A stretch of DNA of 34,802 bases from Candidatus Altiarchaeales archaeon IMC4 (GTDB lineage Archaea; Altiarchaeota; Altiarchaeia; IMC4), in assembly GCA_001742785.1 (NCBI GenBank), contig MCBF01000001.1, forward strand, positions 147,335 to 182,136, read 5' to 3'. A program made the position numbers and the translations under genes. Below are positions 4,963 through 18,003 of this stretch, in pieces (position 1 is the first letter of the stretch; each line of letters opens with the position of its first letter). Below the pieces are notes generated by a model that saw only the letters and a list, made by a program, of their open reading frames with translations, was not told where the DNA came from and did no database searches.

Positions 4963-5202
4963 TTGGAGGCCAAATTGTTAGACAACATACTTATCCCCAA
5001 GCACGAAAAGTTGAGCGCCAAGGAAACGGAGGCAGTGTTAAAAAAGTATAAGATAACGACTGTAGAACTGCCGAAGATACTGAAAACCGACCCGGCTCTC
5101 TCTGAGATGAAGGTGAATGCAGGGGATGTCATAAAGATAACCCGCAAAAGCCAGACCGCCGGAGAATCTTTCTATTTTAGGGTTGTGATAGAGGGCAAAT
5201 AA
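4963..5202 (+). CDS. rpoH: DNA-directed RNA polymerase subunit H (Rpo5)
   Basis: LIPKHEKLSAKE...ITRKSQTAGESFYFRVV is typical RpoH. There is no ATG. The start is TTG at 4963 or, more likely, TTG at 4975, which is preceded by GGAGG (4965-4969). The stop overlaps the rpoB'' ATG (TAATG). Confidence 0.85.
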   Translation: MEAKLLDNILIPKHEKLSAKETEAVLKKYKITTVELPKILKTDPALSEMKVNAGDVIKITRKSQTAGESFYFRVVIEGK

Positions 5203-6653
5203 TGGTAAAAGTAAACGAATTCATGACGGGGGAGGATTTAATAAAATTCCAGATCGACTCTTTCAACTGGCTCATAGAGAAGGGCCTGCAGGAAGTGATA
5301 GACGAGCGCGGCCCGATGGAAATAGAGATCGAGGGCTATTCGATTGGGCTCGGGAAGATAACTGTGGGAACCCCCCAGGTCATCGAATCCGGGCAGTCGC
5401 CTGAAAGCAGGCTTCCTTTTGAGTGCCGGCTGAGGAACCTAACGTACTCAGCCCCTTTGGTTCTTGAGTTCATAGAGGAAAGCGGTGGCAAGAAGGAGGT
5501 CGTCCCGGTAGAAATAGGGCATATGCCGGTAATGCTCAGGTCAAAAGGATGCCTTCTCCATGGTTTAAGCGACAGCGAACTGATAGGGGCCAATGAAGAC
5601 CCCATGGACCTGGGAGGGTATTTCATAATAAACGGTGCCGAGAGGATACTCATACTCGTCGAGGACCTGGCGCCGAACCGTATCGTAACGACAAGCGAGG
5701 TCGTAACCGATAAGCAGGTAACGACCGCGAAGGTCTTCTCGATAAGACAGGGCTTCCGCTCAAGAGTCACCGTCGAAAAACGCGAGGGTGCAAGTGGAGA
5801 AACCCTGTTCGTTACGTTCCCCGGGATACCCGTGCGGATGCCCATCGTAGTCCTGATGAAGGCGCTTGGCCTTCAAAACGATGAGATAATCGGCTTGTTT
5901 GACGACAAAACGAAACTGGAGCTATACCTCAACATGGAGCCCGTTCAGGACATGACCTGCGAGGAGGCCTTTGAGTACCTTGGCCGCCGGGCGGGGGTGG
6001 GGCACGCGAAACAGTACCAGGCAACCCGTGCGAACCAGGTCGTGAACAACTTCCTTTTGCCGCATATCGGAAACAACGAAGAGTCAAGAAGGGCAAAGGC
6101 AGTATATCTCGGGATAATGGCAAAAAAGGCGATAGAGCTTGACAGCAAGACGAGGCAGCCGGACGACAAGGACCACTATTCGAACAAAAGGCTTCGCCTT
6201 GCCGGCGACCTTATGCAGGAGCTGTTCCGTGTCAGTTTCAACAAGATAACAAGGGACATAAAATACCAGCTTGAAAAGCAGCACGCAAGGCACAGGACCG
6301 TAAACATAAGAACCGCCGTGCGAAGCAACAATCTAAGCGAAAGCATTGATTATGCGCTTGCCACGGGCAACTGGACCGGCGGCAGAAGCGGGGTAAGTCA
6401 GGTGCTTGACCGCATGAATTACTTATCTTCGATTGCGCACAAGAGAAGGGTCTCGTCGCTTTTGAGCAGGAGCCACCCGCACTTCGAGGCGCGTGATTTG
6501 CATTCAACACAATGGGGTAGGTTGTGCCCGAACGAAACCCCTGAGGGGCAAAACTGCGGGCTTGTGAAAAATCTGGCGATTGGTGCGGTAATATCCCCCG
6601 GCGAAACGGAGGATGCAGTTGAAAAACAGCTCACGGCTCTGGGGGTAAAATAA
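5202..6653 (+). CDS. rpoB2: DNA-directed RNA polymerase subunit B'' (N-terminal part of split Rpo2)
   Basis: 483 aa with an N-terminal [16 protein letters not shown] motif. Ends with ...[18 protein letters not shown], as expected for the B''/B' split point. Confidence 0.93.
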
Positions 6654-6654
6654 A

Positions 6655-8460
6655 ATGGCAGGCGTATATCTTAACGGAAGGTTCATGGGGCGGCACGAAA
6701 AACCGGATGCTTTAGTGGAGGCGCTGAGGGAGTCCAGAAGAAAAGGGGCTATGCCCAGGAACACATCGATAAGCTACAGGGAGGAAAACAACGAGGTCCA
6801 GATATACACCGACCGCGGCAGGGTTTTGAGGCCCCTTATCATAGTCAAAAACGGGAAGCCCCTTCTCACAAAGGAGCATAAGGAACTCATCAAAAACGAG
6901 AAGATGTCATGGAACGATGCCGTTGGGAAGGGCCTTGTCGAGTATATAGACGCGGAGGAGGAGGAGAACGCCTATGTCGCAATATACGAGGGCGACCTCA
7001 CCAAGGAGCACACCCACCTCGAGGTTCATCCTGCGCTGATACTCAGCATAGCAAGCGGTTTCGCGCCGTACCCGGAACACAACTCGTCCCCGAGGATTAC
7101 GATGGCTGCCGCAATGGCAAAACAAAGCATCGGCCTTTATGCGTCAAACCACTATTCAAGATTCGATTCGCGTTCCGACATCCTGATTTACCCGCAGAGC
7201 CCGCTTGTGAGGACCGACATAACCGAATGCATAGATTACAACAGAAGGCCAGCGGGGCAGAACTTCGTAGTCTCCATCATGTCTTTTGAGGGCTACAACA
7301 TGGAGGATGCCGTTATCCTGAACAAGAGTTCCGTTGAGCGCGGGCTTGGGCGTTCGATGTTCTACCGGACATATACGACGGAAGAGCGCGGCTATCCGAG
7401 CGGACAGTACGACAAATTCGAGATACCCAAAGAGGGTGTCGAGGGCACCCAACCCGAGGAAACATATTCAAAGCTCGACGAGGACGGGTTTATATTACCC
7501 GAGACCGACGTAAGTTCGGGGGATGTCCTTGTGGGGAAAACATCCCCCCCGAGATTCCTCGAGGAGATAGGACCTTACGGCATAGTAGAGGAGCAAAGGA
7601 GGGAAACCTCGACTACGATGAGGCACATGGAACACGGGGTAGTTGACCGCGTCGTCCTCACGGAAACCCTTGAGAAGAATAAGCTCGCAAAAATAAGGGT
7701 GCGAACCCATAGGATTCCGGAACCCGGTGACAAGTTCGCATCAAGGCACGGGCAGAAGGGTGTCGTCGGCATGCTCGTCCCCCATGAGGACATGCCGTTC
7801 ACAAAGGAAGGCATAGTCCCCGACCTGATAATAAACCCGCACGCGATCCCGTCAAGAATGACCATAGGGCACCTCCTTGAGATGGTCGGCGGGAAGGTGG
7901 CTTCCCTTGAGATAGGCAAGGTAAATTCGACCGCATTCGTAAATGACCACGAGGACTACCTCAGGCCGCTTTTGGAAAAGAACGGGTTCAAGAGCACCGG
8001 CAAAGAGGTCATGTACAACGGTGCCACCGGCGGGAAGTTCGAGGCCGAGATTTTCATAGGGGTAATCTACTACCAGAGGCTGCACCACATGGTGGCAAAC
8101 AAACTGCATGCCCGCGCAAGAGGACCGGTACAGATGCTGACAAGACAGCCTACTGAAGGGCGCGCAAGGGAGGGAGGGCTTCGTTTCGGTGAGATGGAGC
8201 GCGACTGCCTGATTGCGCACGGGGCTTCCATGATGCTGAAGGACCGCATGCTTGACGAATCGGATAGGGTTGTTGTCCCGGTTTGTGAAAAGTGCGGCCT
8301 GATAGGTGTGAGGGACTTCGAAAGGAGGTCTGTGCGCTGCCCGCTGTGCGGGGATTCGAACATAGAATACGTAGAGATAGCGTATGCATTCAAATTATTG
8401 CTGGATGAATTAAAGGGGATGTGCATACACCCGAAGCTGAGGCTGGGGGAGAGGGCTTAA
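6655..8460 (+). CDS. rpoB1: DNA-directed RNA polymerase subunit B' (C-terminal part of split Rpo2)
   Basis: 601 aa. Motifs: [32 protein letters not shown], and a C-terminal Zn ribbon (CEKCG...CPLCG). The ATG is 1 nt after the rpoB'' stop. Confidence 0.95.
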
Positions 8461-8466
8461 GAATAG

Positions 8467-8589
8467 CCCTTTCTTTTTAAGAAAAAGAGAGGGTTATACT
8501 CGAAATTGCTGTGCAATTTCGGTACACCAAAACACTTTGTGTTTTGCGTGTCATCCCAAAGAAAAACAGGGCGGGTTGCGAAGCAACCC
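8467..8589 (+). repeat. Hairpin-rich palindromic element, copy B
   Basis: CCCTTTCTTTTT-aag-AAAAAGAGAGGG (8467-8493). HP1 GAAATTGC-tgt-GCAATTTC (8502-8520). GGTACACC. HP2 AAAACAC-ttt-GTGTTTT (8529-8545). GCGTGTCA TCCC AAAGAAAAA. HP3 GGGTTGC-gaa-GCAACCC (8573-8589). Confidence 0.8.
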
Positions 8590-8628
8590 ACCCGAATAAT
8601 ACGACAAACAAAATTCAAATACAAAAAG

Positions 8629-11600
8629 ATGGCGATAGTAAGGAAAAAGGTCAGGGAGATTGAATTTGCTCTGTTTTCACCAAAGCAGATAAGGGCATTG
8701 TCTGCGGGAAAAATATTCACGCCGGACACTTATGACGATGACGGCTACCCGATAGAGGGCGGCCTTATGGACCCGCATCTCGGGGTAATCGACCCGGGGA
8801 TAAGGTGCCGCACCTGCGGGGGGAGGCTCGGGGAATGCATGGGGCACTTCGGCCACATCGAGCTTACGCGGCCGGTTGTGCACGTCGGCTACGCAAAGGA
8901 GATATACAGCCTCCTGCGTGCAACCTGCAAGGGCTGCGGAAGGCTTCTTGTAACGGAAGATACGCTGCAGGGCTATGACGCGGCGAACCTGAACTCCGAA
9001 AAGTTTAACGAAATACTGGAGAAGGCCGAGAAGGTTTCGGATTCTTCGGGCAGGTGCCCTCACTGCGGGCAGCAGCAGCAGAAAATAAAGTTCGTCAGGC
9101 CGTATTCTTATCACGAGGGGGACGACACGCTTCTTGTGACCGACATACTGGAGCGCTTTGAAAAGATAAGCGAAGAAGACCTGATGTACGTCGGTTTCAA
9201 CACGAGGCCAGAGTGGATGATCATGAGCGCGATACCGGTCCTTCCGATAGTTACAAGGCCGTCGATAACCCTTGAGTCAAGCGACAGGAGCGAGGACGAC
9301 CTCACTCACAAACTCGTCGATATACTCAGGATAAACCAGCGCCTTGAGGAGAACATAAACTCCGGCGCGCCGCAGTTGATAATAGAGGACCTTTGGGACC
9401 TCCTTCAGTATCACGTTGCCACCTACTTTGACAACGGCATAACCGGCATCCCACCCGCAAGGCACCGCTCGGGCAGGCCGCTTAAGACCATAGCGCAAAG
9501 GCTTAAAGGCAAAGAGGGCAGGTTCAGGAACAACCTTTCAGGAAAGCGTGTTAACTTCTCGGCAAGAACTGTCATAAGCCCGGACCCGAACATAAGCATA
9601 AACGAGGTCGGGGTCCCGGAGGTCATAGCCGTCGAGCTCACCGTCCCGGAAGAGGCAAACAAGGATAACATAGATTCCCTGAAAGGGATGGTAAAAAACG
9701 GGCCCGGTAAGTTCCCGGGCGCACACAGCGTCATAAAAGAGGGCAAGCGGCGCAGGATCCTGGAGGAAACGAAGGACGAGGTCGCAGAAACCCTTGCAGT
9801 AGGGGACGTCGTCGAGCGCCACCTTTGCGACGGCGACATTGTCATATTCAACAGGCAGCCATCCTTGCACAGGATGTCGATGATGTGCCACACCGTAAGG
9901 GTTCTGCCGTATTCCACATTCAGGTTGAACACCGCAGTCTGCGCCCCGTATAACGCGGACTTCGACGGCGATGAGATGAACCTGCACGTCCCGCAGTCCG
10001 AGGAAGCCAAGGCCGAGGCGGAAATACTGATGAAGGTGCAGGAGAACATAATCTCCCCGCGGTTCGGTGAGCCCGTGATGGGCGGCCGCCACGACCACGT
10101 AACAGGGATGTACCTTCTTACCAAAGACGGCAGGATTTTAAGCCGCAGGGAAGCGCTCCAGCTGACCAGGAACATCGTGAACCTGCCGAAAAAGGACACG
10201 TACACCGGGAGGGATATATTTAGTGCGCTTCTGCCGAATGACCTGACTATGTCCTTTGAAGGAAAGATGGGCCCGGTGGTTATAGAAAAAGGGCAGGTCA
10301 AGTCCGGCGTTATAGCTGCAAAGGGCATGGCAGGAGAACTACTGAACGAGATATTCCTCAAGTACGGCTCGGACGCGGCAAGGCAGTACATCGACAAATC
10401 CACACGTCTTGCGATAAACTCATTCATGAAGTACGGTTTCTCAACCGGAATAGACGAAAACGACCTGAAAAAAGACGGAATAAAGGAGATCACGGATGTC
10501 CTTGATGCCGCGGAGAAGGAGGTCGACAAGCTGGTCGAACAGCACCACAAGAAAACCATGAAGGTCGTCCCCGGGAAAACATTGGACGAAAGCCTTGAGG
10601 ATTACGCCCTTATGACGCTTGGAAAAGCGAGAATGGACTCCGGAAAGATAGCCGCACGGCGCATCGGCGAGAACAGCGCGGTGATAATGGCAAAAGCGGG
10701 GGCCCGCGGAAGCCTTCTGAACCTTACCCAAATGGTCGGGTCGATCGGGCAGCAGGCGGTCAGGGGCAAGCGTATAAAGCGCGGCTACCACAACAGGACG
10801 CTGTCAAGTTTCAAGAAACACGATGTGAGCGCAAGGGCAAACGGTTTCGTCAGGTCAAGTTTCAAGAAGGGGCAGACCCCGCAGGAATACTTCTTCCACG
10901 CGATGGGCGGGAGGGAAAGCCTTGTGGATACTGCGATAAGGACGGGGCGCAGCGGTTATATGCAAAGGAGGCTCATAAACGCACTTCAGGACCTTAAGGT
11001 ATACCCCGACGAAACGGTTCGCGGGGACGGGAAGATATTGGTGCAATTCAGGTACGGGGAGGACGGAATAGACCCTGCGAAGACCGGATATATCAAAGGC
11101 GGCAGGAAGGATTACGAGAAGGCTAGGGTTGTCCCCGGAGAGGCCGTCGGAACCGTTGCTGCGCAGTCAATAGGTGAACCCGGGACACAGATGACCTTGA
11201 GGACGTTCCACTACGCGGGTGTCGTCGAGTTGAGCGTTCCGCTGGGTCTGCCGCGGCTTATAGAGATAATAGATGCCAAGCGCTCGCCGAGCAACCCGAT
11301 GATGACCATATACCTCGACAAGGAGCACATGCACGATGAAAAGAAGGCTTCCGAGCTTGCAGAAAAACTCGATGAGAAGTTCATGGAGGATGTCTGCGAA
11401 AGCACCGTCGACGCGAACAAAAAAGAGATCATAATAAAAACAAAGGACAAGGCGGCGCAGGAGGCCCTGAAGGAAATCTCCGAGGCAAGGGCGGCCAACA
11501 CGTTCGTCGTATCGGGGGAGTCGCTTCCTGAAATCAAAAGGACGCTTGGAAAGCTTATGAAGAAGAAGGTGTCCGGCGTAAAGGACATAAAAAGGACGTT

Positions 11601-12078
11601 CGTAAGGGAGCTTAACGGGGAGACCGTAATCTACACTGAGGGCTCAAACCTGAAGGCAGTATTAAAGATTAAGGGCGTTGATACCGTGCGGACGACGACA
11701 AATGACCTCTACCAGATATATGAAACGCTCGGCATAGAGGCGGTAAGAAGCGCCGTCATAAACGAGGCATCGAAGGTCCTCAAGGAAGAAAGGCTGGATG
11801 TTGACATAAGGCACATGATGCTTGTCGCAGACCAAATGACGGTTACCGGGGAGCTTCAGGCGGTCGGAAGGCACGGAATAAGCGGCTCGAAGGAGTCGAT
11901 GCTTGCAAGGGCCGCTTTCGAGGAAACCGAAAAGCACATACTCAATGCCGCTGTTACCGGAGAGGTGGACATGCTCGACGGCGTTGCAGAGAACATAATC
12001 ATAGGGCAGTCTGTCCCCGTAGGGACGGGCACCATTGACCTAGGGGTAAAACCCGGCATTATCGGCAAGGGAAAGTAA
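8629..12078 (+). CDS. rpoA: DNA-directed RNA polymerase largest subunit, with A' and A'' (Rpo1N plus Rpo1C) fused in one ORF
   Basis: Start chosen at MAIVRKKVREIEF, because the longer 8506 ORF begins inside a repeat element. The A' part has CRTCGGRLGECMGHFGH and YNADFDGDEMNLH. The A'' part (VVPGEAVGTVAAQSIGEPGTQMTLRTFHYAG...LGLPRLIEIIDAKR) follows in the same frame with no stop. Confidence 0.9.
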   Translation: MAIVRKKVREIEFALFSPKQIRALSAGKIFTPDTYDDDGYPIEGGLMDPHLGVIDPGIRCRTCGGRLGECMGHFGHIELTRPVVHVGYAKEIYSLLRATCKGCGRLLVTEDTLQGYDAANLNSEKFNEILEKAEKVSDSSGRCPHCGQQQQKIKFVRPYSYHEGDDTLLVTDILERFEKISEEDLMYVGFNTRPEWMIMSAIPVLPIVTRPSITLESSDRSEDDLTHKLVDILRINQRLEENINSGAPQLIIEDLWDLLQYHVATYFDNGITGIPPARHRSGRPLKTIAQRLKGKEGRFRNNLSGKRVNFSARTVISPDPNISINEVGVPEVIAVELTVPEEANKDNIDSLKGMVKNGPGKFPGAHSVIKEGKRRRILEETKDEVAETLAVGDVVERHLCDGDIVIFNRQPSLHRMSMMCHTVRVLPYSTFRLNTAVCAPYNADFDGDEMNLHVPQSEEAKAEAEILMKVQENIISPRFGEPVMGGRHDHVTGMYLLTKDGRILSRREALQLTRNIVNLPKKDTYTGRDIFSALLPNDLTMSFEGKMGPVVIEKGQVKSGVIAAKGMAGELLNEIFLKYGSDAARQYIDKSTRLAINSFMKYGFSTGIDENDLKKDGIKEITDVLDAAEKEVDKLVEQHHKKTMKVVPGKTLDESLEDYALMTLGKARMDSGKIAARRIGENSAVIMAKAGARGSLLNLTQMVGSIGQQAVRGKRIKRGYHNRTLSSFKKHDVSARANGFVRSSFKKGQTPQEYFFHAMGGRESLVDTAIRTGRSGYMQRRLINALQDLKVYPDETVRGDGKILVQFRYGEDGIDPAKTGYIKGGRKDYEKARVVPGEAVGTVAAQSIGEPGTQMTLRTFHYAGVVELSVPLGLPRLIEIIDAKRSPSNPMMTIYLDKEHMHDEKKASELAEKLDEKFMEDVCESTVDANKKEIIIKTKDKAAQEALKEISEARAANTFVVSGESLPEIKRTLGKLMKKKVSGVKDIKRTFVRELNGETVIYTEGSNLKAVLKIKGVDTVRTTTNDLYQIYETLGIEAVRSAVINEASKVLKEERLDVDIRHMMLVADQMTVTGELQAVGRHGISGSKESMLARAAFEETEKHILNAAVTGEVDMLDGVAENIIIGQSVPVGTGTIDLGVKPGIIGKGK

Positions 12079-12090
12079 CCGACTTAAAAA

Positions 12091-12393
12091 ATGAAAACAC
12101 TCAAAAGGGAATTAGCGAACGCACAGAAGAGCGGAAACGTGGTAACCGGTTCGAAAAATACGATATTATCTTTATTAACGGGAAATCCCAAGTTGATAAT
12201 ATTGAGTAACAATTGCAAGGTTGTTATAAAAGAAACAATCACCTATTACTCGAGGTTATCTGGCACTCATTGCCACGTGATTGAAGGCGACAGCATAGAA
12301 CTTGGTTCTGCTTGCGGCAAACCGTTTCCGGTGTCTGCCATTGCAGTCATGGACGAGGGCGAGTCAAATATCCTTGACTTTGCCAAAGGGTGA
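12091..12393 (+). CDS. rpl30e: 50S ribosomal protein L30e
   Basis: 100 aa (...GSKNTILSLLTGNPKLIILSNNC...IELGSACGKPFPVSAIAV). It sits in the canonical position between rpoA and nusA. Confidence 0.9.
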   Translation: MKTLKRELANAQKSGNVVTGSKNTILSLLTGNPKLIILSNNCKVVIKETITYYSRLSGTHCHVIEGDSIELGSACGKPFPVSAIAVMDEGESNILDFAKG

Positions 12394-12427
12394 ATTCGCG
12401 GTGGACGGGATAAGGATCGGCGCGAAC

Positions 12428-12490
12428 GAGACAAGAAATTTGCGGGGCAAATTTGTGTCGCGTATGAGGTATCAGATACCTCATACCGCG
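12428..12490 (-). repeat. Probable degenerate copy F of the same element (minus orientation), overlapping the nusA start
   Basis: Minus strand: [ATGAGGTAT ctg ATACCTCAT] ACGCGACAC [AAATTTG ccccg CAAATTT] CTTGTCTC. Compare the consensus HP1-GGGACACC-HP2-GCTTGTC. Confidence 0.45.
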
Positions 12491-12883
12491 ATAAAGCATA
12501 TCACACTGTTCGAGTCCATAACCGGTGCGATGGCGCGCGATTGTGTCGAGGATAACGAATCGGTCGCCTTTGTTGTCGAGCCCGGGGACATGGGGCTTGC
12601 GATAGGCAAGGGCGGTTCAAACATCCAGAGGGCGCAGCGGTCACTTGGCAGGGGGGTGTGGGTGATCGAGCATTCGAAAAATCAGGCGGATTTCGTAAGG
12701 AACATCTTCGGGCCCGCTAGGGTAAAGAACATAAAGGCTATGGATGATAAGACAGTGGTCGTCGAAATCAAACGTGGCGAACGAAGAGGAATGTTTGGCA
12801 GGAATCCAAAAAGGATTGCAATCGCAAAAAGCCTTGTAAAGAGGCACCATGGGGTCGAGGATATAATAATAAAAACGATATAA
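12464..12883 (+). CDS. nusA: Archaeal NusA-like transcription termination/antitermination protein (two KH domains)
   Basis: [27 protein letters not shown]...[19 protein letters not shown]. The ORF-track start at 12302 would overlap L30e by 92 nt. ATG 12464 gives the usual length of about 140 aa. Alternative starts GTG 12401, TTG 12440 and GTG 12455 cannot be excluded. Confidence 0.8.
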
Positions 12884-12905
12884 CTTAAACTCATCAAACT
12901 CAAAA

Positions 12906-13334
12906 ATGGCAAGGGGAGAATTTTCGGGCAAAAAGCTTGAGGACCACCGGCATCAGGCAAGGTGGAAGAAAAGCGACTACTGCAGGAGGGTGCTTGGGCT
13001 GAAGCAAAAGCACGACCCGTTAGAGGGGGCTCCGCAGGCAAGGGCCATTGTGCTTGAGAAGGTCGGCATAGAGGCGAAGCAGCCGAATTCCGCGATAAGA
13101 AAGTGCGTAAAGGTTCAGCTCATGAAGAACGGCAGGCAGGCGACCGCTTTCTGTCCGGGCAATCACGCAATCACTTTCATAGAGGAGCACGACGAGGTAG
13201 TTATAGAGGGCATCGGCGGCCGAAAGGGGCGGTCGATGGGGGACCTTTCTGGCATAAGATACAAAGTAATAATGGTAAATGGCATCTCGCTGAACGAACT
13301 GTGGCACGGACGGAAGGAGAGGGCACAGAGATAA
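12906..13334 (+). CDS. rps12: 30S ribosomal protein S12 (uS12)
   Basis: 142 aa with [28 protein letters not shown]. Confidence 0.95.
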
Positions 13335-13335
13335 A

Positions 13336-13722
13336 ATGACTGACATAATAAACGACACGATTGTGAACCTGAAAAACCATGAGCGCAAGGGGAAATCGCA
13401 GTGCACGATTAAGCCGGTTTCCAAGCTGCTGATTGAGGTTTTAGGGGTATTCCAAAAAGAGGGCTACATCGGCCAGTTTGAGGTGTCTGAGGACAAAACC
13501 GGAGGCAGCGTGCGTGTTAATCTTGTAAAGAGGATAAACGAGTGCGGCATCATCAAGCCGCGCTACTCTGTAAGCCACACTGAATTCGACACCTTGGAGA
13601 AGAGATTCCTGCCGGCGAAGGATTTCGGGACGATCGTTGTAACGACGCCCAAAGGGGTTATGAGCCACAAGGACGCAAAAAAGAAGAACCTCGGCGGCAA
13701 GTTAATAGCATACGTTTACTGA
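13336..13722 (+). CDS. rps8: 30S ribosomal protein S8 (uS8)
   Basis: 128 aa with a C-terminal ...KKKNLGGKLIAYVY. The ATG is 1 nt after the S12 stop. Confidence 0.92.
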   Translation: MTDIINDTIVNLKNHERKGKSQCTIKPVSKLLIEVLGVFQKEGYIGQFEVSEDKTGGSVRVNLVKRINECGIIKPRYSVSHTEFDTLEKRFLPAKDFGTIVVTTPKGVMSHKDAKKKNLGGKLIAYVY

Positions 13723-13724
13723 AC

Positions 13725-14255
13725 ATGGACGCTTCACTTGACATTCCGGAGGGCATCGGCGTTGAAGTCGATAAAAATCTGGTGAAGGTAAAGGGCCCGA
13801 AGGGCGAAGTGGAAAGACGCTTCGGTGCAAATGTAAAAATATCGAAAAAGGACAATGAGATAATCTTGTCCGTCGGATCAAGCAAGCGAAAGGAAGCCGC
13901 GTGCCTTGGTTCGGTGGCCGCCCACATAAAAAACATGATGGGGGGCGTGGCTCGTGGCGTAAATTACAAATTAAAAATATTATACTCGCACTTCCCGATG
14001 ACTGTTAAGGTCCATGGAGATGAGGTCCTGATAGACAACTTCTTGGGGGAAAAATACCCGCGGAAGTCAAGGATACTGCCCGGCGTTAAGGTCGGGATAA
14101 AGGGGCAGGACATCACGGTTGACGGAATAGACAAGGAGGCCGTCGCGCAGACCGCCGCAAACATAGAGTACGCGACAAAGATAAGGGGCCGCGACCCGCG
14201 CGTGTTCCAGGACGGGATATACCTGACCGAAAAAGACGGCAAGCATTTGAAATAA
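13725..14255 (+). CDS. rpl6: 50S ribosomal protein L6 (uL6)
   Basis: 176 aa (...VKVKGPKGEVERRF...LKILYSHFPMTVKV...IRGRDPRVFQDGIY). Confidence 0.92.
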   Translation: MDASLDIPEGIGVEVDKNLVKVKGPKGEVERRFGANVKISKKDNEIILSVGSSKRKEAACLGSVAAHIKNMMGGVARGVNYKLKILYSHFPMTVKVHGDEVLIDNFLGEKYPRKSRILPGVKVGIKGQDITVDGIDKEAVAQTAANIEYATKIRGRDPRVFQDGIYLTEKDGKHLK

Positions 14256-14268
14256 TTTCAAATATAGC

Positions 14269-15492
14269 ATGGCTAAATCAAAATCAGACAAGGTTATGGA
14301 AAAGAAGGGGGTCCTGACTGCCAAGAGGGCGAAGGCCGCCGAGGATTCCAAAAAGAAAGGTATCGGGGTGAAAGAGGAAGCCGCCCATGAGGAACCCTCC
14401 GAAGAAAAAGTAAAACCGATAACCGAAAAGAAAAAGGCCAAAAAAACTTCCGAGGAAGCCGCAAAGGCACCAAAGCCCGTGGAAGCCCCTGAAGAAAAGG
14501 TCGTTGAAAGGATAATAAAAACAAGAAAGGAAAAGCCCGTCGAGAAGATAAAATTCTTCGGTGTAAAGAGGAAACTGTCGCAGGGCATTGCCCGCGTTTT
14601 CAAGATCGCGAAGGTTGCAAAGAAAAAGAAGCCGAAGTTCAACCGGCAGGAGCTCCACAGGTACAAGAAGCTCAAGGATGTGTGGAGGACGCCGAGGGGC
14701 ATCGACAGCAAGCTTGCGCGGGACAAGCGCGGCAAGGGCGCAAGGCCTAAAATCGGGTATAAAAACCCGCCGGCGGTCTCGGGGCTTGACCCGTCAGGAT
14801 TTCTGCCAATAACCATAAATAACGTTAAAGAGTTGGCAAAGGTCGACAAATCCGTCAATGCGATAGTAATAGCGGGCAGTGTCGGCAGGAAAAAGCGAAA
14901 CGACATCATAAAGGCCGCAAACGAGAAAAAGATCATCATACTTAACCCCAGAAAGGGCGAGCTTCCCGGGCAGGGCGCAAAAAGGGTGCTGATGGTCATT
15001 GCGCCGAAAAACTTCAGGGACGAGGAGTTGATAACCCCGAAAGAGGTGTTCGAATCCGCGGGTTTTAACGTCATGATAGCAGGGGTCTCAAAAACCAAGG
15101 CGGTCGGTGCGGGCAGCACTGCCGTTATACCGGATGTTGCGATAAAGGATGCAAAAGCCGAGGATTACGATGCTGTCGTTTTTATCGGAGGCCCGGGTGC
15201 AAAGGAGCACCTGTGGGACAACAAGGATGCACATGCCCTTGCAAAGGGCGGCGCAAAGGCAAAGGCGCTTGGCTCGATATGCCTCGCGGGCGTTGTGCTT
15301 GCCAGAAGCGGCGTGCTGAAAGGCAGGGAAGCGACGGTGTTCGAATCGGAGGAAACAATAAAGGAGTTTGAGTCGGCCGGGGCAGAGTACGTCAAAAAGC
15401 CGGTGGTCGTTTCGGGTAACATCATAACCGCAAACGGGCCTGAAGCGGCAAAGGCGTTCGGGGCAAAAATCGTCGATATCGTGAACAAATAA
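14269..15492 (+). CDS. rpl32e: Ribosomal protein L32e with a K/E/A-rich N-terminal extension, fused in frame to a C-terminal DJ-1/PfpI-family domain
   Basis: 407-aa uninterrupted ORF. The L32e core is KKKKPKFNRQELHRYKKLKDVWRTPRGIDSKLARDKRGKGARPKIGYKNP...GRKKRNDIIKAANEKKIIILNP. From about nt 14980 it reads KRVLMVIAPKNFRDEEL...DAVVFIGGPGA...LGSICLAGVVLARSGVLKGREAT...VVVSGNIITANGPEAA. This aligns by eye to PH1704/PfpI-like proteins, with the nucleophile-elbow Cys at 15280-15282. Confidence 0.8.
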   Translation: MAKSKSDKVMEKKGVLTAKRAKAAEDSKKKGIGVKEEAAHEEPSEEKVKPITEKKKAKKTSEEAAKAPKPVEAPEEKVVERIIKTRKEKPVEKIKFFGVKRKLSQGIARVFKIAKVAKKKKPKFNRQELHRYKKLKDVWRTPRGIDSKLARDKRGKGARPKIGYKNPPAVSGLDPSGFLPITINNVKELAKVDKSVNAIVIAGSVGRKKRNDIIKAANEKKIIILNPRKGELPGQGAKRVLMVIAPKNFRDEELITPKEVFESAGFNVMIAGVSKTKAVGAGSTAVIPDVAIKDAKAEDYDAVVFIGGPGAKEHLWDNKDAHALAKGGAKAKALGSICLAGVVLARSGVLKGREATVFESEETIKEFESAGAEYVKKPVVVSGNIITANGPEAAKAFGAKIVDIVNK

Positions 15493-15493
15493 A

Positions 15494-15931
15494 ATGAACC
15501 TCAGAAACCAAAGAAGGATGGCTGCCAAGGTATTGAATGTCGGGGAGAATAAGGTAAAGATCAGCCCTGATTCCCTTGATGAGGTTTCGCAGGCGATAAC
15601 CCGCGACGACATAAGGCACTTCATAAACAACGGTATAATCACTGCAGCCCCTGAAAAGGGTAACAGCAAGGCAAGGCACGCACTTTACGCTGAACAAAAA
15701 AAGAAGGGCAGGCACCGCGGACACGGAAGCCGCACCGGCTCGAAAAAGGCAAGGACCCAGGGGAAGCGCTCATGGATCCAGAAGGTAAGGGCGCTCAGGG
15801 ACGAACTCAAAAACATGAAGAACTCCAAGACATTGGGGAAGATTTCATATCGCAAGCTTTACAGGCAGGTCGCAGGCAACATGTTCCACTCCAGAAGGCA
15901 CCTGCGCGAACATATAGAGAGGCAAAAATAG
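15494..15931 (+). CDS. rpl19e: 50S ribosomal protein L19e
   Basis: 145 aa (MNLRNQRRMAAKVLNVGENKVKI...GRHRGHGSRTGSKKAR). Confidence 0.93.
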   Translation: MNLRNQRRMAAKVLNVGENKVKISPDSLDEVSQAITRDDIRHFINNGIITAAPEKGNSKARHALYAEQKKKGRHRGHGSRTGSKKARTQGKRSWIQKVRALRDELKNMKNSKTLGKISYRKLYRQVAGNMFHSRRHLREHIERQK

Positions 15932-15957
15932 GGACATCAAGATTCAATAGAATGCTC

Positions 15958-16027
15958 GAAATTGCAGAGCAATTTCGGCACACCGAATCACAAAGTGATT
16001 CGCGTGTCTCGTGGCTTTGAGAGTCAC
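15958..16027 (+). repeat. Hairpin-rich palindromic element, copy C
   Basis: HP1 GAAATTGC-aga-GCAATTTC (15958-15976). GGCACACC. HP2 GAATCAC-aaa-GTGATTC (15985-16001). GCGTGTC. HP3 GTGGCT-ttgag-AGTCAC (16011-16027). Confidence 0.8.
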
Positions 16028-16036
16028 AATTTCAAA

Positions 16037-16582
16037 ATGGCAACCGGCGCTACATACGTGGTCCAGTACAGGCGGAAAAGAAGTCAGGAAACGGATTACA
16101 GAGACAGGCTTGACCTTCTTAAATCCGGAAAGCCAAGGCTGGTTATAAGGCCGTCAAACAAGCACATAGTCGTTCAGGTCATTGGTTACAAGCCGAACGG
16201 CGACATGGTGCTCGCGTCTGCAAAATCGTCAGACCTCGTCGGGTTCGGATGGAAATACGCAAAATCGAATATACCTGCCGCGTACCTCACGGGGCTCTTG
16301 TGCGGAAAGCGCGCAACCGATGCGAAGGTGAAGGACGCTGTCATGGACATAGGGCTTTGCCGCTCGGTAAAGGGGTCAAGAATATACGCCGCGCTGAAGG
16401 GCGTGGTTGATTCGGGGCTTGAGGTTGCGCACGACGAGAAGATATTCCCGGACGAGTCCAGGATATCCGGGCAGCACACAAAGGCGGCAAAAGAGATGTC
16501 TGCAAACGCAAAGGGGGTCGCTGATGCGATAAAAAATAAAGTAGCGCCCAAAACAATAAAAGAGGTAAAACCCAAAAAATAA
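16037..16582 (+). CDS. rpl18: 50S ribosomal protein L18 (uL18 / L5e)
   Basis: MATGATYVVQYRRKRSQETDYRDRLDLLKSGKPRLVIRPSNKHIVVQV... The ORF-track start at 15962 lies inside a repeat element, so ATG 16037 is preferred. Confidence 0.9.
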   Translation: MATGATYVVQYRRKRSQETDYRDRLDLLKSGKPRLVIRPSNKHIVVQVIGYKPNGDMVLASAKSSDLVGFGWKYAKSNIPAAYLTGLLCGKRATDAKVKDAVMDIGLCRSVKGSRIYAALKGVVDSGLEVAHDEKIFPDESRISGQHTKAAKEMSANAKGVADAIKNKVAPKTIKEVKPKK

Positions 16583-16583
16583 A

Positions 16584-17351
16584 ATGGCATTCAAAGGTGG
16601 AAAAAGAAGGGCCCAAAGGGAGATGACGTCCGATGAACTGGCGGCTTCCTATGAGCAGATGATCGATACGTGGGTTCCAAAGACTGCGTTGGGTACCATG
16701 GTAAAAAAGAAAGAAATAACGAGCATGGGTGCCGTGATGGCATCGGGCATTCCTATCAAAGAGGCCGAGATAGTCGAAATGCTGCTTCCAAACATGAGTG
16801 AGGAAGTAATCAACGTCGGCAGGGTCCAGCGGACAACCGACTCGGGCCGAAGGATGCGCTTTCGCGTTACCGCCGCAACAGGCAATAATAACGGATATAT
16901 CGGGATCGGAATCGCAAAGGGTAAGGAGGTCGGCCCCACCATAAGGACTGCAATTAAAAGGGCTAAGATGAATATAAAGGAGATAAAGCGCGGCTGCGGA
17001 AGCTGGGAATGCGGCTGCGGAAACCCGCACACCGTCCCGTTCGACGTGGAAGGGGATTGCGGAAGCGTGAGGGTCAAGCTGTCTCCTGCCCCGAGGGGTG
17101 TCGGCCTTATCGGCAGCGAAACCGCAAAGAAGGTGCTGACCCTGGCCGGGGTAAGCGATGCGTGGGTAAAATCAAGCGGCCGCGCAAGAACAACGCTGAA
17201 TTATGCTTATGCGGTGCTTGATGCGCTGGTTAACACGAATTACATGAAACTTAATGAAACTGACAATAAAAACCTGAGCATCGTCCGCGGTGCCACATCC
17301 AAGAAAGAACTGAAAGCAGAAGATGATACAAAAGAACAAACCGCAGGGTAA
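16584..17351 (+). CDS. rps5: 30S ribosomal protein S5 (uS5), with a short acidic/lysine-rich C-terminal tail
   Basis: 255 aa (...VQRTTDSGRRMRFRVTAATGNNNGYIGIGIAKGKEV...APRGVGLIGSETAKKVLTLAGVSD). Confidence 0.92.
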   Translation: MAFKGGKRRAQREMTSDELAASYEQMIDTWVPKTALGTMVKKKEITSMGAVMASGIPIKEAEIVEMLLPNMSEEVINVGRVQRTTDSGRRMRFRVTAATGNNNGYIGIGIAKGKEVGPTIRTAIKRAKMNIKEIKRGCGSWECGCGNPHTVPFDVEGDCGSVRVKLSPAPRGVGLIGSETAKKVLTLAGVSDAWVKSSGRARTTLNYAYAVLDALVNTNYMKLNETDNKNLSIVRGATSKKELKAEDDTKEQTAG

Positions 17352-18003
17352 ACCGGAAAAGGTTTCGGAAAAGATTCTGACGAAAGCCGGGCCGAAAGCG
17401 GCGAGCGCGCCAAAAAAAGCAGTTGTTGCGGTTGCGCCCAAAGTAGAGTCTGTTGCAAAGGTTTCGAGGCAGAATGCGGACAAGCAAAATCGCACAGCGA
17501 TTTTGGTGTCCAAAAACTCAAAGAGTTTTGCGGACAAGCGAATCGCAATAATCCGCGTCAGGGGCAGCGTCCATCTTAGAAGCGGTATAGCCGACGCCAT
17601 GAAAATGCTGAACCTGAACCGCGTCAACCACTGCGTCGTGGTGGACAACCGCCCGCAGTACATGGGTATGATAAACAAGGCCAAGGACTACATAACCTTC
17701 GGCGAGATAAACGAGGAAACCGTGGCATCGCTTATTGCAAAGCGCGGCAGGCTCCCTGGAAACGTAAGGCTCGATGACGCTTACGTGAAAAATGCCACCG
17801 GCAAAGACATCGCAGGTTTTGCAGGCGCGTTCATGAAATTCGAAAAAGAGCTGAAAGACATCCCGGACATAAGCCCTGTTTTCCGCCTCAGGCCGCCGAA
17901 AAAGGGCCACGCAAGGGGCGGCATCAAGAAGCCGTGCTCTGTCGGTGGCGCTCTTGGGAACCGAAAAGAGAAGATAAACGACCTTCTGGCAAAGATGATA
18001 TAA
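17323..18003 (+). CDS. rpl30: 50S ribosomal protein L30 (uL30 / L7e-like), with an N-terminal K/A/P-rich extension of about 70 aa
   Basis: The conserved core starts at IAIIRVRGSVHLRSGIADAMKMLNLNRVNHCVVVDNRPQYMGMINKAKDYITFGE. The only ATG is 17323, which overlaps S5 by 29 nt. Starting at the alternative GTG 17506 would remove the extension. Confidence 0.85.
   Translation: MIQKNKPQGKPEKVSEKILTKAGPKAASAPKKAVVAVAPKVESVAKVSRQNADKQNRTAILVSKNSKSFADKRIAIIRVRGSVHLRSGIADAMKMLNLNRVNHCVVVDNRPQYMGMINKAKDYITFGEINEETVASLIAKRGRLPGNVRLDDAYVKNATGKDIAGFAGAFMKFEKELKDIPDISPVFRLRPPKKGHARGGIKKPCSVGGALGNRKEKINDLLAKMI

What the first reader, a model, noticed from the sequence alone, without database searches (positions are those of the whole stretch)
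14269..15492. Ribosomal protein L32e fused in frame to a DJ-1/PfpI-family domain within the ribosomal-protein operon
The ORF has three parts: a K/E/A-rich N-terminal region of about 110 aa, a complete L32e core, and a full DJ-1/PfpI-like domain joined through the linker ...IIILNPRKGELPGQGAK-RVLMVIAP...

The DJ-1 domain keeps the nucleophile-elbow Cys (SICLAG, codon 15280-15282) and the upstream acidic residue (NFRDEEL). The residue after the Cys is Leu rather than the His of PfpI proteases, so it is DJ-1/YajL-like, which suggests a deglycase, chaperone or redox-sensor type.

The L6-L32e-L19e order is among the most conserved in archaea. I know of no described ribosomal protein carrying a DJ-1 domain. 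It could tether a repair or redox-sensing activity to the large subunit. Alternatively the domain may be translated separately from the internal GTG/ATG near 14986-14994.
Basis: partly seen in the sequence, partly recalled or inferred. Interest (0 to 1): 0.7.

Follow-up and report, generated by a model that had tools for sequence, protein, structure and literature searches.

The report
Ribosomal protein eL32 carrying DJ-1 domain
In a subgroup of uncultivated subsurface archaea (Altiarchaeota, clade Alti-2), the gene for large-subunit ribosomal protein eL32 has permanently absorbed a DJ-1/PfpI-type reactive-cysteine domain, which probably places that domain on the ribosome surface; public annotation has missed this by calling only half of the gene.

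Summary
ORF 14269-15492 (+) encodes 407 aa in three parts:
- a disordered K/E-rich N-terminus;
- a complete eL32 (Pfam E=2e-31; above the NCBIfam equivalog cut-off);
- a complete DJ-1/PfpI domain (E=4e-36; AF2 pLDDT 93-98; TM 0.9 to PfpI-class structures).
It lies between L6 and L19e.

It is not an artefact. The identical gene occurs in six contigs from independent assemblies. About six diverged Altiarchaeota lineages (47-70% identity, GC 37-50%) carry the same architecture. Their linkers differ in length but always keep the frame.

Unfused relatives end at ...ILNPRKGE[L/I/V/T]-stop, so the fusion arose by loss of that stop.

The DJ-1 domain keeps the Cys (C338) and the Glu (E253, equivalent to DJ-1 Glu18). 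It lacks both His residues used by PfpI/YhbO and by DJ-1. Its free relatives are mostly exported or membrane-anchored.

GenBank annotates only the last 166 aa, as 'hypothetical protein', in two genomes. I found no literature description.

Best reading: a ribosome-tethered reactive-cysteine module on the solvent side of the 50S subunit. Its biochemical role is inferred, not shown. It is a new domain architecture of known parts, of moderate to high interest.

The parts
14269..15492 (+). Complete eL32::DJ-1/PfpI fusion gene (407 codons plus TAA stop)
   Evidence: ORF list and sequence. Both Pfam domains lie in one frame. The identical gene is present in 4 retrieved independent assemblies.
14269..14568 (+). 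K/E/A-rich, predicted disordered N-terminal extension (aa 1 to about 100). This is a lineage trait of Altiarchaeota eL32, not specific to the fusion.
   Evidence: AF2 pLDDT is 40-50 over aa 1-80. Unfused Altiarchaeota eL32 proteins of 213-267 aa carry similar extensions.
14572..14958 (+). eL32 (L32e) ribosomal protein domain, aa 102-230
   Evidence: NCBIfam PRK08562 covers aa 102-229 at 135.1 bits, above the cut-off of 120. Pfam PF01655 covers aa 121-226. PDB eL32 chains match aa 108-230.
14947..14964 (+). PRKGEL (aa 227-232): the ancestral C-terminus of Altiarchaeota eL32. In unfused relatives a stop codon follows directly.
   Evidence: Seven GTDB Altiarchaeota loci end ...ILNPRKGE[L/I/V/T]* with L19e next; one (L037) has a 4-residue tail. 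ILNPRKGE is invariant in all fusions.
14965..14982 (+). Linker (aa 233-238, PGQGAK). It varies in length and sequence between lineages (6-15 aa) and always keeps the frame.
   Evidence: Junction DNA of the window, L001, L081, L082/L083 and L084. Alignment A1. AF2 pLDDT dips to about 70 in the 231-240 block.
14980..15489 (+). DJ-1/PfpI-superfamily domain, aa 238-407 (minimal PfpI-like fold, no C-terminal DJ-1 helix)
   Evidence: Pfam PF01965 covers aa 238-403 at E=4e-36. AF2 pLDDT is 93-98. Foldseek target-normalised TM is 0.90-0.93 to 4hcj, SAV1875, PH1704 and Ton1285.
14992..14994 (+). Internal ATG (Met242), used as the start codon by the GenBank 166-aa 'hypothetical protein' calls. It lies within strand beta-1 of the domain.
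   Evidence: P0216 (ODS43058.1) and P0219 (ODS36397.1) start at MVIAP/MIIAP. AF2 places a strand at aa 239-243. This Met is never N-terminal in 112 occurrences among relatives.
15025..15027 (+). Glu253, the conserved acidic residue equivalent to human DJ-1 Glu18 and SAV1875 Glu17
   Evidence: Pairwise alignments. Invariant in the fusions.
15280..15282 (+). Cys338, the nucleophile-elbow cysteine (equivalent to DJ-1 Cys106 and SAV1875 Cys105). It is followed by Leu339 instead of the His of PfpI/YhbO.
   Evidence: Alignments. I337, C338 and L339 are invariant in the fusions.
15340..15342 (+). Phe358, at the position of human DJ-1 His126; invariant Phe in the fusions
   Evidence: BLASTP alignment to human DJ-1. 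Alignment A1.
13725..14255 (+). Upstream neighbour: ribosomal protein uL6
   Evidence: Pfam PF00347, E=1.5e-32.
15494..15931 (+). Downstream neighbour: ribosomal protein eL19. Its ATG lies 1 nt after the fusion's stop; some gene callers start it at 15518.
   Evidence: Pfam PF01280 and PF25476. Gene calls in L161-L164.

Best explanation
This is a genuine, evolutionarily maintained gene fusion found in part of the Alti-2 clade of Altiarchaeota. The window matches Ca. Altiarchaeales archaeon IMC4 from a sulfidic groundwater spring.

How it arose. A DJ-1/PfpI-superfamily gene came to lie directly behind the eL32 gene. It belongs to a subfamily whose free members normally carry a signal peptide or membrane anchor. 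It lost its leader, the eL32 stop codon after ...PRKGE(L/I) was lost, and the two now form one reading frame.

What it most likely produces. The operon-encoded eL32 of these organisms is made as one polypeptide: a disordered K/E-rich N-terminus, the eL32 rRNA-binding domain, a 6-15 aa flexible linker, and a folded DJ-1 domain. eL32 lies in the solvent-exposed equatorial belt of the large subunit. The most likely outcome is therefore one DJ-1 domain displayed per 50S subunit.

What the domain most likely does. It keeps the reactive Cys338 and the Glu253 that tunes it in DJ-1 proteins. It lacks the His residues of PfpI/YhbO (next to the Cys) and of DJ-1 (His126). I therefore infer Cys/Glu-based chemistry at the ribosome surface, rather than PfpI-type proteolysis or YhbO-type glyoxalase activity. 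The candidates are scavenging or repair of reactive carbonyl (glyoxal, methylglyoxal) adducts, or a redox-sensitive or sacrificial thiol.

Shown: the ORF, both domains, the conservation, the origin by stop-codon loss, and the intact Cys/Glu. Inferred: translation as one chain, incorporation into ribosomes with the domain attached, and the chemistry.
For: 1. Both domains are complete and significant in one frame.
2. The identical gene occurs on 6 contigs from independent assemblies, in the same operon context. These are three NCBI MAG assemblies and an ENA groundwater metagenome of PRJEB6121.
3. The same architecture occurs in other lineages: P0001-P0005 and P0007, L001 (WOR_SM1_SCG), L081-L084 and L165-L167. 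Pairwise identity is 47-70% in the DJ-1 part and GC runs from 37 to 50%.
4. The fusion survives operon rearrangements. The operon is intact in the window, L084 and L167. An extra ORF sits between L6 and the fusion in L082. The operon is broken right after the fusion in L001 and L081.
5. Unfused Altiarchaeota eL32 ends at ILNPRKGE[L/I/V/T]-stop directly before L19e. In the fusions this motif is invariant and is followed by linkers of 6, 12, 12 and 15 aa. The frame is preserved and the other two frames contain stops.
6. Residues upstream of the internal Met (K[KR][IV]L, strand beta-1) are conserved as in free homologues, and that Met is never a start in 112 occurrences among relatives. Coding constraint therefore runs across the junction.
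7. The DJ-1 domain is as conserved as the eL32 domain: 51% against 59% identity between the window and L001. E253, C338 and the GGPG motif are invariant.
8. The AF2 model has pLDDT 93-98 for the domain, with TM 0.90-0.93 to PfpI-class structures.
9. GC3 of the DJ-1 half equals that of neighbouring ribosomal genes, so the fusion is old and not a recent insertion.
10. eL32 is on the solvent-exposed equatorial belt of the large subunit (PMC5961077). Haloarchaeal eL32 already tolerates an extra HhH domain: P0062 and P0068 carry HhH-type Pfam domains plus PF01655, and NCBIfam has a 238-position eL32 model, PRK12766.
11. IMC4_SM1 and WOR_SM1_SCG, both fusion carriers, are each other's closest relatives in protein trees (PMC4975002).
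Against: - There is no protein-level evidence. Nobody has shown the 407-aa chain or extra density on a ribosome.
- GenBank annotators called the DJ-1 part as a separate 166-aa protein.
- The operon's genes lack Shine-Dalgarno motifs, so internal initiation cannot be excluded from sequence.
- The exposure of the eL32 C-terminus in the archaeal 50S was not checked on coordinates.
- DJ-1/PfpI proteins normally work as dimers or hexamers, and in the PfpI class the active site is completed by a neighbouring subunit. A single tethered copy may therefore be inactive, or may need to pair.
- The His next to the Cys, shown to be essential for PfpI methylglyoxalase activity (PMC11987610), is absent, and so is the DJ-1 His126 equivalent. 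Glyoxalase activity is therefore uncertain.
- The closest solved structure (4hcj) even lacks the Cys, which shows that this branch includes non-catalytic members.
- A single origin is not demonstrated. Fused DJ-1 domains are monophyletic with one distance method, but not with another (15% bootstrap). The ribosomal-protein tree leaves the window's position unresolved.
Confidence: 0.6

Rival explanations
1. Co-expression vehicle or polyprotein. The fusion serves only to make the DJ-1 domain at ribosomal-protein levels. The domain is then released, either by proteolytic cleavage in the linker or by internal initiation at Met242, and acts as a free cytoplasmic protein while a normal-sized eL32 enters the ribosome. 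This would be analogous to the eukaryotic ubiquitin-eL40 and ubiquitin-eS31 fusions, which are cleaved.
For: GenBank gene calls start at the internal Met in two genomes. That Met is conserved in all fusions. The linker is short, variable and of lower model confidence, so it would be accessible to proteases. DJ-1/PfpI proteins normally act as soluble oligomers (PMC11987610).
Against: No cleavage motif is conserved in the linker: the sequences and lengths differ completely between lineages. The Met is part of strand beta-1, is equally conserved in free homologues, and is never the start there. The residues before it are under the same constraint. Starting at Met242 would remove conserved beta-1 residues. 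Internal initiation would not relieve eL32 of the domain, because there is no stop. If separate products were selected for, regaining the ancestral stop would need a single mutation, yet none of about six lineages has done so.
Confidence: 0.2
2. The DJ-1 domain is a non-enzymatic structural or oligomerisation module. Through the usual DJ-1/PfpI homodimer interface it pairs two 50S subunits or ribosomes (a hibernation-like or storage state), or recruits a partner. Alternatively it acts in cis as a solubility or assembly chaperone for the very basic eL32.
For: DJ-1/PfpI family members are obligate dimers or hexamers (PMC11987610). Both catalytic His residues are missing. The closest solved relative, 4hcj, has lost the Cys altogether, so non-catalytic roles exist in this branch. 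Free relatives occur as tandem arrays of 2, 3 and 4 domains, which suggests that domain-domain association matters.
Against: Cys338 and Glu253 are invariant across fusions that share only about 50% identity. A purely structural role would not require that. There are no data on oligomerisation.
Confidence: 0.15
3. Artefact. The continuous frame results from an assembly or sequencing error, such as a lost stop codon or a frameshift, or from a chimeric contig. In reality there are two genes.
For: Public annotation lists only a 166-aa product. MAG and single-cell assemblies can contain errors.
Against: The gene sequence is identical in 4 retrieved independent assemblies (6 contigs on record). The same fusion is present in at least 10 further contigs from NCBI, JGI, ENA and Logan, at 47-70% identity and with in-frame linkers of different lengths. 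One 12-member 90% cluster contains many full-length 430-468-aa versions.
Confidence: 0.02

Closest known systems
Archaeal ribosomal protein eL32 (L32e; Pfam PF01655, NCBIfam PRK08562), including the haloarchaeal long form with an N-terminal HhH domain (PRK12766; H. marismortui L32e, 240 aa)
   Same: It has a complete eL32 domain above the equivalog cut-off. It sits in the canonical operon position between uL6 and eL19. Its C-terminal motif ILNPRKGE is shared with unfused Altiarchaeota eL32. The haloarchaeal form shows that eL32 can carry an additional domain.
   Different: The extra domain is at the C-terminus rather than the N-terminus. It is an enzyme-type DJ-1/PfpI fold rather than a nucleic-acid-binding HhH domain. 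At 407 aa the protein is about three times the length of typical archaeal eL32 (125-130 aa).
PfpI/YhbO-class DJ-1 superfamily proteins (P. horikoshii PH1704, S. aureus SAV1875, E. coli YhbO, P. aeruginosa PfpI)
   Same: It shares the same minimal fold of about 170 aa without the DJ-1 C-terminal helix (TM 0.90-0.93). It has the nucleophile-elbow Cys and the upstream Glu (SAV1875 Glu17 and Cys105). TIGR01382 is the best-scoring subfamily HMM.
   Different: The His next to the Cys is Leu here (C338-L339); that His is essential for P. aeruginosa PfpI methylglyoxalase activity (PMC11987610). The TIGR01382 score is 116, below the cut-off of 139. The domain is tethered as a single copy to a ribosomal protein rather than being a free dimer or hexamer.
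Human DJ-1 / E. coli YajL (DJ-1 proper)
   Same: The Glu18 and Cys106 equivalents are conserved (E253, C338), and the residue after the Cys is not His. From my own knowledge, not checked here: E. coli YajL has been linked to ribosome integrity and translational accuracy, and DJ-1 was first described as an 'RNA-binding protein regulatory subunit' (a name still attached to PDB 1p5f and 1j42).
   Different: Identity is only 28% and TM 0.80. The C-terminal dimerisation helix is absent. The His126 position holds Phe358. The TIGR01383 score of 71 is below its cut-off of 131, and the YajL model scores 19 against 252.
Unnamed exported/anchored DJ-1 subfamily (motifs K-K-[IV]-L-M-V-I-A-x-x-x-F-R-D-E-E and IC[ILA]AP), found in CPR bacteria, Nitrospinota, DPANN and other archaea
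   Same: These are the closest sequence relatives of the fused domain (45-55% identity) and share the same motifs.
   Different: Free members carry an N-terminal signal peptide, lipobox or membrane anchor. They also occur as tandem arrays of 2 to 4 domains, or fused to cyclophilin or nitroreductase domains. In the window the leader is replaced by eL32, which moves the domain to the cytoplasmic ribosome.
Eukaryotic ubiquitin-ribosomal protein fusions (Ub-eL40, Ub-eS31)
   Same: A non-ribosomal globular domain is encoded in frame with a ribosomal protein and conserved across lineages. (Analogy from established knowledge.)
   Different: There the extra domain is N-terminal and is cleaved off at a conserved Gly-Gly site. 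Here it is C-terminal, and no conserved cleavage site exists in the variable linker.

Membership tests
Ribosomal protein eL32 (L32e) | Match to the family HMM above the curated threshold | tested here: met
   PF01655 scores 108.8 bits against a cut-off of 25. NCBIfam equivalog PRK08562 scores 135.1 bits against 120. PDB eL32 chains match at E about 1e-25.
Ribosomal protein eL32 (L32e) | Canonical operon position between uL6 and eL19 | tested here: met
   The order is uL6 (13725-14255), the fusion, then eL19 (15494-15931), uL18, uS5 and uL30.
Ribosomal protein eL32 (L32e) | It is the only eL32 of the genome and is physically part of the 50S subunit | not testable with these tools
   Only one eL32 locus from WOR_SM1_SCG was returned by the genome scan. 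That genome is an incomplete single-cell assembly, and the scan was pattern-limited. There are no ribosome or proteome data.
DJ-1/PfpI superfamily (PF01965) | Match to the family HMM above threshold over the full domain | tested here: met
   124.7 bits against 26.6, covering model positions 1-164 of 165.
DJ-1/PfpI superfamily (PF01965) | Flavodoxin-like alpha/beta fold with a nucleophile elbow | tested here: met
   AF2 pLDDT is 93-98. Foldseek gives E of 1e-15 to 1e-18 and TM 0.90-0.93 to 4hcj, 4y0n, 1g2i and 3l18.
DJ-1/PfpI superfamily (PF01965) | Conserved reactive Cys at the elbow and conserved Glu (DJ-1 Glu18 / SAV1875 Glu17) | tested here: met
   C338 and E253 align to these residues and are invariant in seven fusions.
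PfpI/YhbO subfamily (TIGR01382; deglycase/protease) | Subfamily HMM above cut-off | tested here: not met
   116.4 bits against a cut-off of 139.05. The deglyc_PfpI equivalog scores 67.8 against 330.
PfpI/YhbO subfamily (TIGR01382; deglycase/protease) | Cys-His dyad (His immediately after the nucleophile) | tested here: not met
   The sequence is C338-L339. Relatives have ICLAP, ICIAP or ICLSP, never C-H. This His is essential in P. aeruginosa PfpI (PMC11987610).
DJ-1 proper / glyoxalase III (TIGR01383) and YajL (PRK11574) | Equivalog HMM above cut-off | tested here: not met
   TIGR01383 scores 71.3 against 131.25. YajL scores 18.7 against 252.
DJ-1 proper / glyoxalase III (TIGR01383) and YajL (PRK11574) | His126 equivalent and C-terminal dimerisation helix | tested here: not met
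   F358 aligns with His126. The domain ends where the human DJ-1 helix of about 15 residues begins. TM to human DJ-1 is only 0.80.
DJ-1/PfpI superfamily | Enzymatic activity (glyoxalase, deglycase, protease) or Cys oxidation to sulfinate | not testable with these tools
   This requires biochemistry on the recombinant domain.

The most novel reading that the evidence does not exclude
The ribosome of these Alti-2 archaea is natively equipped with a covalently attached DJ-1-type reactive-cysteine module that acts on the ribosome itself or on its products. It could remove or intercept glyoxal or methylglyoxal adducts on rRNA, ribosomal proteins or nascent chains. It could also switch ribosome behaviour, for example by pairing or hibernation through DJ-1-type dimerisation, in response to oxidation of Cys338. 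That would be a natural experiment linking the DJ-1 superfamily directly to the translation machinery, a link long suspected but disputed for human DJ-1 and E. coli YajL.
Probability: 0.25. Interest if true: 0.8.

Novelty: new variant of a known kind. Interest (0 to 1): 0.6.

Why it matters
Ribosomal proteins rarely acquire enzyme-type domains. When they do, the addition marks a function that selection wanted physically on the ribosome.

Here a DJ-1/PfpI reactive-cysteine domain has been kept fused to eL32 through deep divergence (47-70% identity), large GC shifts and operon break-ups. The linkage itself is therefore very probably selected.

The cellular roles of the DJ-1 superfamily (glyoxalase, disputed protein and nucleic-acid deglycase, redox sensor, chaperone, RNA binding) are still argued over. 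A lineage in which the domain is hard-wired to the large subunit offers a direct, testable case for a translation-associated role.

There is also a practical annotation point. In GenBank the gene is represented only by a 166-aa 'hypothetical protein' in both IMC4 and WOR_SM1_SCG. Marker-gene pipelines may therefore score eL32 as missing or aberrant in these genomes.

It further shows a normally exported or membrane-anchored DJ-1 subfamily being re-targeted to the cytoplasm by replacement of its leader.

Tried and rejected
- Rfam and tRNA scans of the window found nothing, so no RNA element is involved.
- One script failed on a file-name assumption.
- An NJ tree of the eL32 domain alone (about 137 aa) was unresolved and did not group the fusions. 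I do not treat this as evidence for multiple origins.
- The Biopython bootstrap timed out. A fast re-implementation with Kimura distances gave only 75/500 support for monophyly of the fused DJ-1 domains. A single origin is therefore left as plausible, not shown.
- A concatenated S8+L6+L32+L19e+L18+S5 NJ tree grouped L001+L084 (98%) and then L082 (65%), but it left the window unplaced.
- Looking for a Shine-Dalgarno motif before the internal ATG was uninformative, because the bona fide genes of this operon lack such motifs as well.
- P0069 and P0070 scored above the true fusions in the profile search and were suspected to be larger fusions. They are exported tandem arrays of 4 and 3 DJ-1 domains with no eL32.
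- L007, the closest free homologue, matches from residue 231, so I checked it as a possible pre-fusion state. It is an unrelated locus encoding a lipoprotein-type DJ-1.
- Recent horizontal acquisition of the DJ-1 half was rejected. Its GC and GC3 equal those of neighbouring ribosomal genes.
- Three literature searches for any description of an eL32/L32e fusion with DJ-1 or PfpI returned nothing. The paper describing IMC4 and WOR_SM1_SCG does not mention it.
Full report
**1. Observation**

The window contains one uninterrupted ORF on the + strand at 14269-15492 (407 aa).
- Pfam finds Ribosomal_L32e at aa 121-226 (E=2.2e-31). It finds a full-length DJ-1_PfpI domain at aa 238-403 (E=4.1e-36). Both are far above their gathering thresholds.
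- The NCBIfam eL32 equivalog PRK08562 scores 135.1 bits, above its cut-off of 120.
- PDB sequence searches hit archaeal eL32 chains over aa 108-230 and DJ-1/PfpI proteins over aa 238-406.
- The neighbours, confirmed by Pfam, run in this order: L30e, NusA-KH, uS12, uS8, uL6, the fusion, eL19, uL18, uS5, uL30.

**2. Not an artefact**

An exact-sequence look-up finds the same 407-aa protein on six contigs. Four were retrieved: three NCBI MAG assemblies (GCA_017973795.1, GCA_017973895.1, GCA_017973835.1) and an ENA assembly of the PRJEB6121 groundwater metagenome. In all four the gene DNA is identical to the window and the operon context is the same, while the flanks differ.

The 90% cluster of this protein contains GenBank ODS43058.1 from Ca. 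Altiarchaeales archaeon IMC4. This identifies the organism as the Alti-2 member from the Muehlbacher Schwefelquelle sulfidic spring.

**3. Conservation**

The two-domain architecture recurs in several places:
- proteins P0001-P0005 and P0007, from Logan, JGI and ENA;
- one GTDB species genome, Ca. Altiarchaeales archaeon WOR_SM1_SCG (L001);
- JGI metagenome contigs L081-L084.

Together with the window these make about six lineages. They share 47-70% identity in the DJ-1 part and their GC content runs from 37 to 50%.

The context differs between lineages:
- The operon is intact in the window, L084 and L167.
- An extra 143-aa ORF sits between uL6 and the fusion in L082.
- The operon ends right after the fusion in L001 and L081.

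A profile search of 1.84 billion cluster representatives finds only two representatives spanning both domains, P0001 and P0005. The architecture is therefore rare and, as far as sampled, confined to Altiarchaeota.

**4. Origin**

Seven unfused Altiarchaeota eL32 genes end at ...ILNPRKGE[L/I/V/T] followed by a stop, with eL19 immediately after. One of them has a 4-residue tail. They carry the same kind of K/E-rich N-terminal extension, 213-267 aa in total. The extension is therefore a lineage trait.

In all fusions ILNPRKGE is invariant. It is followed by a linker of 6, 12, 12 or 15 residues that differs in sequence but always preserves the frame, and the other two frames contain stops.

The fused domain's closest free relatives come from Nitrospinota, CPR bacteria, DPANN and other archaea, at 45-55% identity. 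Nearly all carry an N-terminal signal peptide, lipobox or membrane anchor. Some are tandem arrays of 2 to 4 domains, and others are fused to cyclophilin or nitroreductase. In the fusion, eL32 takes the place of that leader.

GC3 of the DJ-1 half (0.64) matches the neighbouring ribosomal genes (0.59-0.70), so the event is old.

Whether it happened once is unresolved:
- Fused DJ-1 domains form one clade with BLOSUM distances. With Kimura distances they do not, at 15% bootstrap.
- A concatenated ribosomal-protein tree joins L001+L084 (98%) and then L082 (65%), but does not place the window.
- Bird et al. 2016 found that IMC4_SM1 and WOR_SM1_SCG are each other's closest relatives in protein trees (PMC4975002). 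That fits a single origin.

**5. One polypeptide or two?**

GenBank annotates only the last 166 aa, starting at Met242, as a 'hypothetical protein' in both IMC4 (ODS43058.1) and WOR_SM1_SCG (ODS36397.1). Three points count against this as the main product:
- Met242 lies inside strand beta-1 (AF2 strand 239-243).
- In 112 occurrences of the LM[VI]IA motif among relatives, this Met is never at the N-terminus. It is preceded by the conserved K[KR][IV]L, which is also conserved in the fusions.
- Without a stop codon, eL32 necessarily carries the domain. The single mutation that would restore the ancestral stop has not been fixed in any lineage.

The operon's genes lack Shine-Dalgarno motifs, so additional internal initiation cannot be excluded from sequence.

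**6. The DJ-1 domain**

The AF2 model was built from a 49-sequence alignment. Confidence by region:

| Region | pLDDT |
|---|---|
| DJ-1 domain, aa 240-407 | 93-98 |
| Globular half of eL32 | 78-96 |
| Linker block, aa 231-240 | about 70 |
| N-terminus | <50 |

Foldseek places the domain closest to the minimal PfpI-class structures: 4hcj, SAV1875, PH1704 and Ton1285, at TM 0.90-0.93. Human DJ-1 scores TM 0.80.

Residue correspondence:

| Window residue | Equivalent | Status |
|---|---|---|
| E253 | DJ-1 Glu18 / SAV1875 Glu17 | conserved |
| C338 | DJ-1 Cys106 / SAV1875 Cys105 | conserved |
| L339 | PfpI/YhbO His next to the Cys | replaced by Leu |
| F358 | DJ-1 His126 | replaced by Phe |

The His next to the Cys is essential for P. 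aeruginosa PfpI methylglyoxalase activity (PMC11987610).

All subfamily HMMs score below their cut-offs: PfpI 116 against 139, DJ-1 glyoxalase III 71 against 131, YajL 19 against 252. The domain is thus a member of the superfamily but of none of the characterised subfamilies. It retains a Cys/Glu pair that stays invariant across about 50% divergence.

**7. Mechanism (inferred)**

eL32 belongs to the belt of proteins on the solvent-exposed equator of the large subunit (PMC5961077). Haloarchaeal eL32 already tolerates an additional domain.

The most economical reading is that each 50S subunit displays one DJ-1-type domain on a short flexible tether. This would provide Cys/Glu-based chemistry at the ribosome, either scavenging or repair of reactive carbonyls or a redox-sensitive thiol.

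The rivals are:
- release of the domain by cleavage or internal initiation;
- a non-catalytic pairing or chaperone role;
- an artefact, which is rejected.

No protein-level data exist, and I did not check exposure of the eL32 C-terminus on coordinates.

**8. Novelty and verdict**

Three full-text searches found no description of an eL32/L32e fusion with DJ-1 or PfpI. The genome paper for IMC4 and WOR_SM1_SCG does not mention it. Public annotation hides it.

It is a new domain architecture assembled from two well-known families, maintained by selection in a clade of uncultivated archaea: a new variant of a known kind. Interest is 0.6. The existence and conservation of the fusion are near certain. 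Ribosome display is likely. The chemistry is open.

Noticed in passing
window 8506-12078 (+), with 5202-6653 and 6655-8460: The RNA polymerase subunit A appears unsplit. One 1149-1190-aa ORF contains Rpb1 domains 1-5 (domain 5 is matched over 1-265 of 267) and is followed directly by L30e, with no separate rpoA''. Subunit B is split into two ORFs of 483 and 601 aa. Most archaea split A into A' and A''.
   Followed up: partly
window 12091-18003 (+); also L028, L037, L043, L045, L060, L066: There is an unusual merged operon order: L30e, NusA-KH, uS12, then directly uS8, uL6, eL32, eL19, uL18, uS5, uL30. No uS7/EF-2 block follows S12, and no S4e-L5-S14 block precedes S8. The S12-S8 junction is shared by several Altiarchaeota loci and may be a lineage marker.
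   Followed up: partly
window 17323-18003 (+), 16584-17351 (+); loci L037, L045, L066: Several ribosomal proteins of this lineage carry long K/E/A-rich low-complexity N-terminal extensions, not only eL32. Examples are uL30 (226 aa, with the Pfam domain only at aa 74-124), uS5, and uL6 in some relatives. Independent assemblies differ by indels around the uL30 start: gene calls of 134 aa in L161 against 208 aa in L162 and L163.
   Followed up: no
GenBank ODS43058.1 (IMC4) = window 14992-15492; ODS36397.1 (WOR_SM1_SCG) = L001, last 166 codons of ORF 5512-6918: Public records annotate only the C-terminal 166 aa, from the internal Met, as 'hypothetical protein'. The eL32 part upstream in the same frame is left out of that gene call, so eL32 may appear missing in marker-gene surveys of these genomes.
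   Followed up: yes
P0069 (739 aa), P0070 (554 aa), P0006/P0011/P0071 (about 375-398 aa); L007 5923-6531: The DJ-1 subfamily related to the fused domain is typically exported or membrane-anchored, with a signal peptide or lipobox. It also forms tandem arrays of 2, 3 or 4 DJ-1 domains, or fusions to cyclophilin (P0029, P0033) or nitroreductase (P0049, P0057-P0067). It appears to be an uncharacterised extracytoplasmic DJ-1 family.
   Followed up: partly
L001 7142-9935 compared with L081: In the WOR_SM1_SCG single-cell genome, about 3 kb is inserted between the fusion gene and purB. The insert encodes a CAP12/Pycsar-type TIR-domain effector (358 aa, PF10137, E=8e-37) and further small ORFs. It is absent from the otherwise collinear metagenome contig L081, so it looks like a variable defence islet.
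   Followed up: partly
L082 2976-3407: A 143-aa ORF with a lipoprotein-like signal (…LSGCIGG) and no Pfam match sits between uL6 and the eL32::DJ-1 gene in one fusion lineage. After eL19 the operon there continues with non-ribosomal genes.
   Followed up: no
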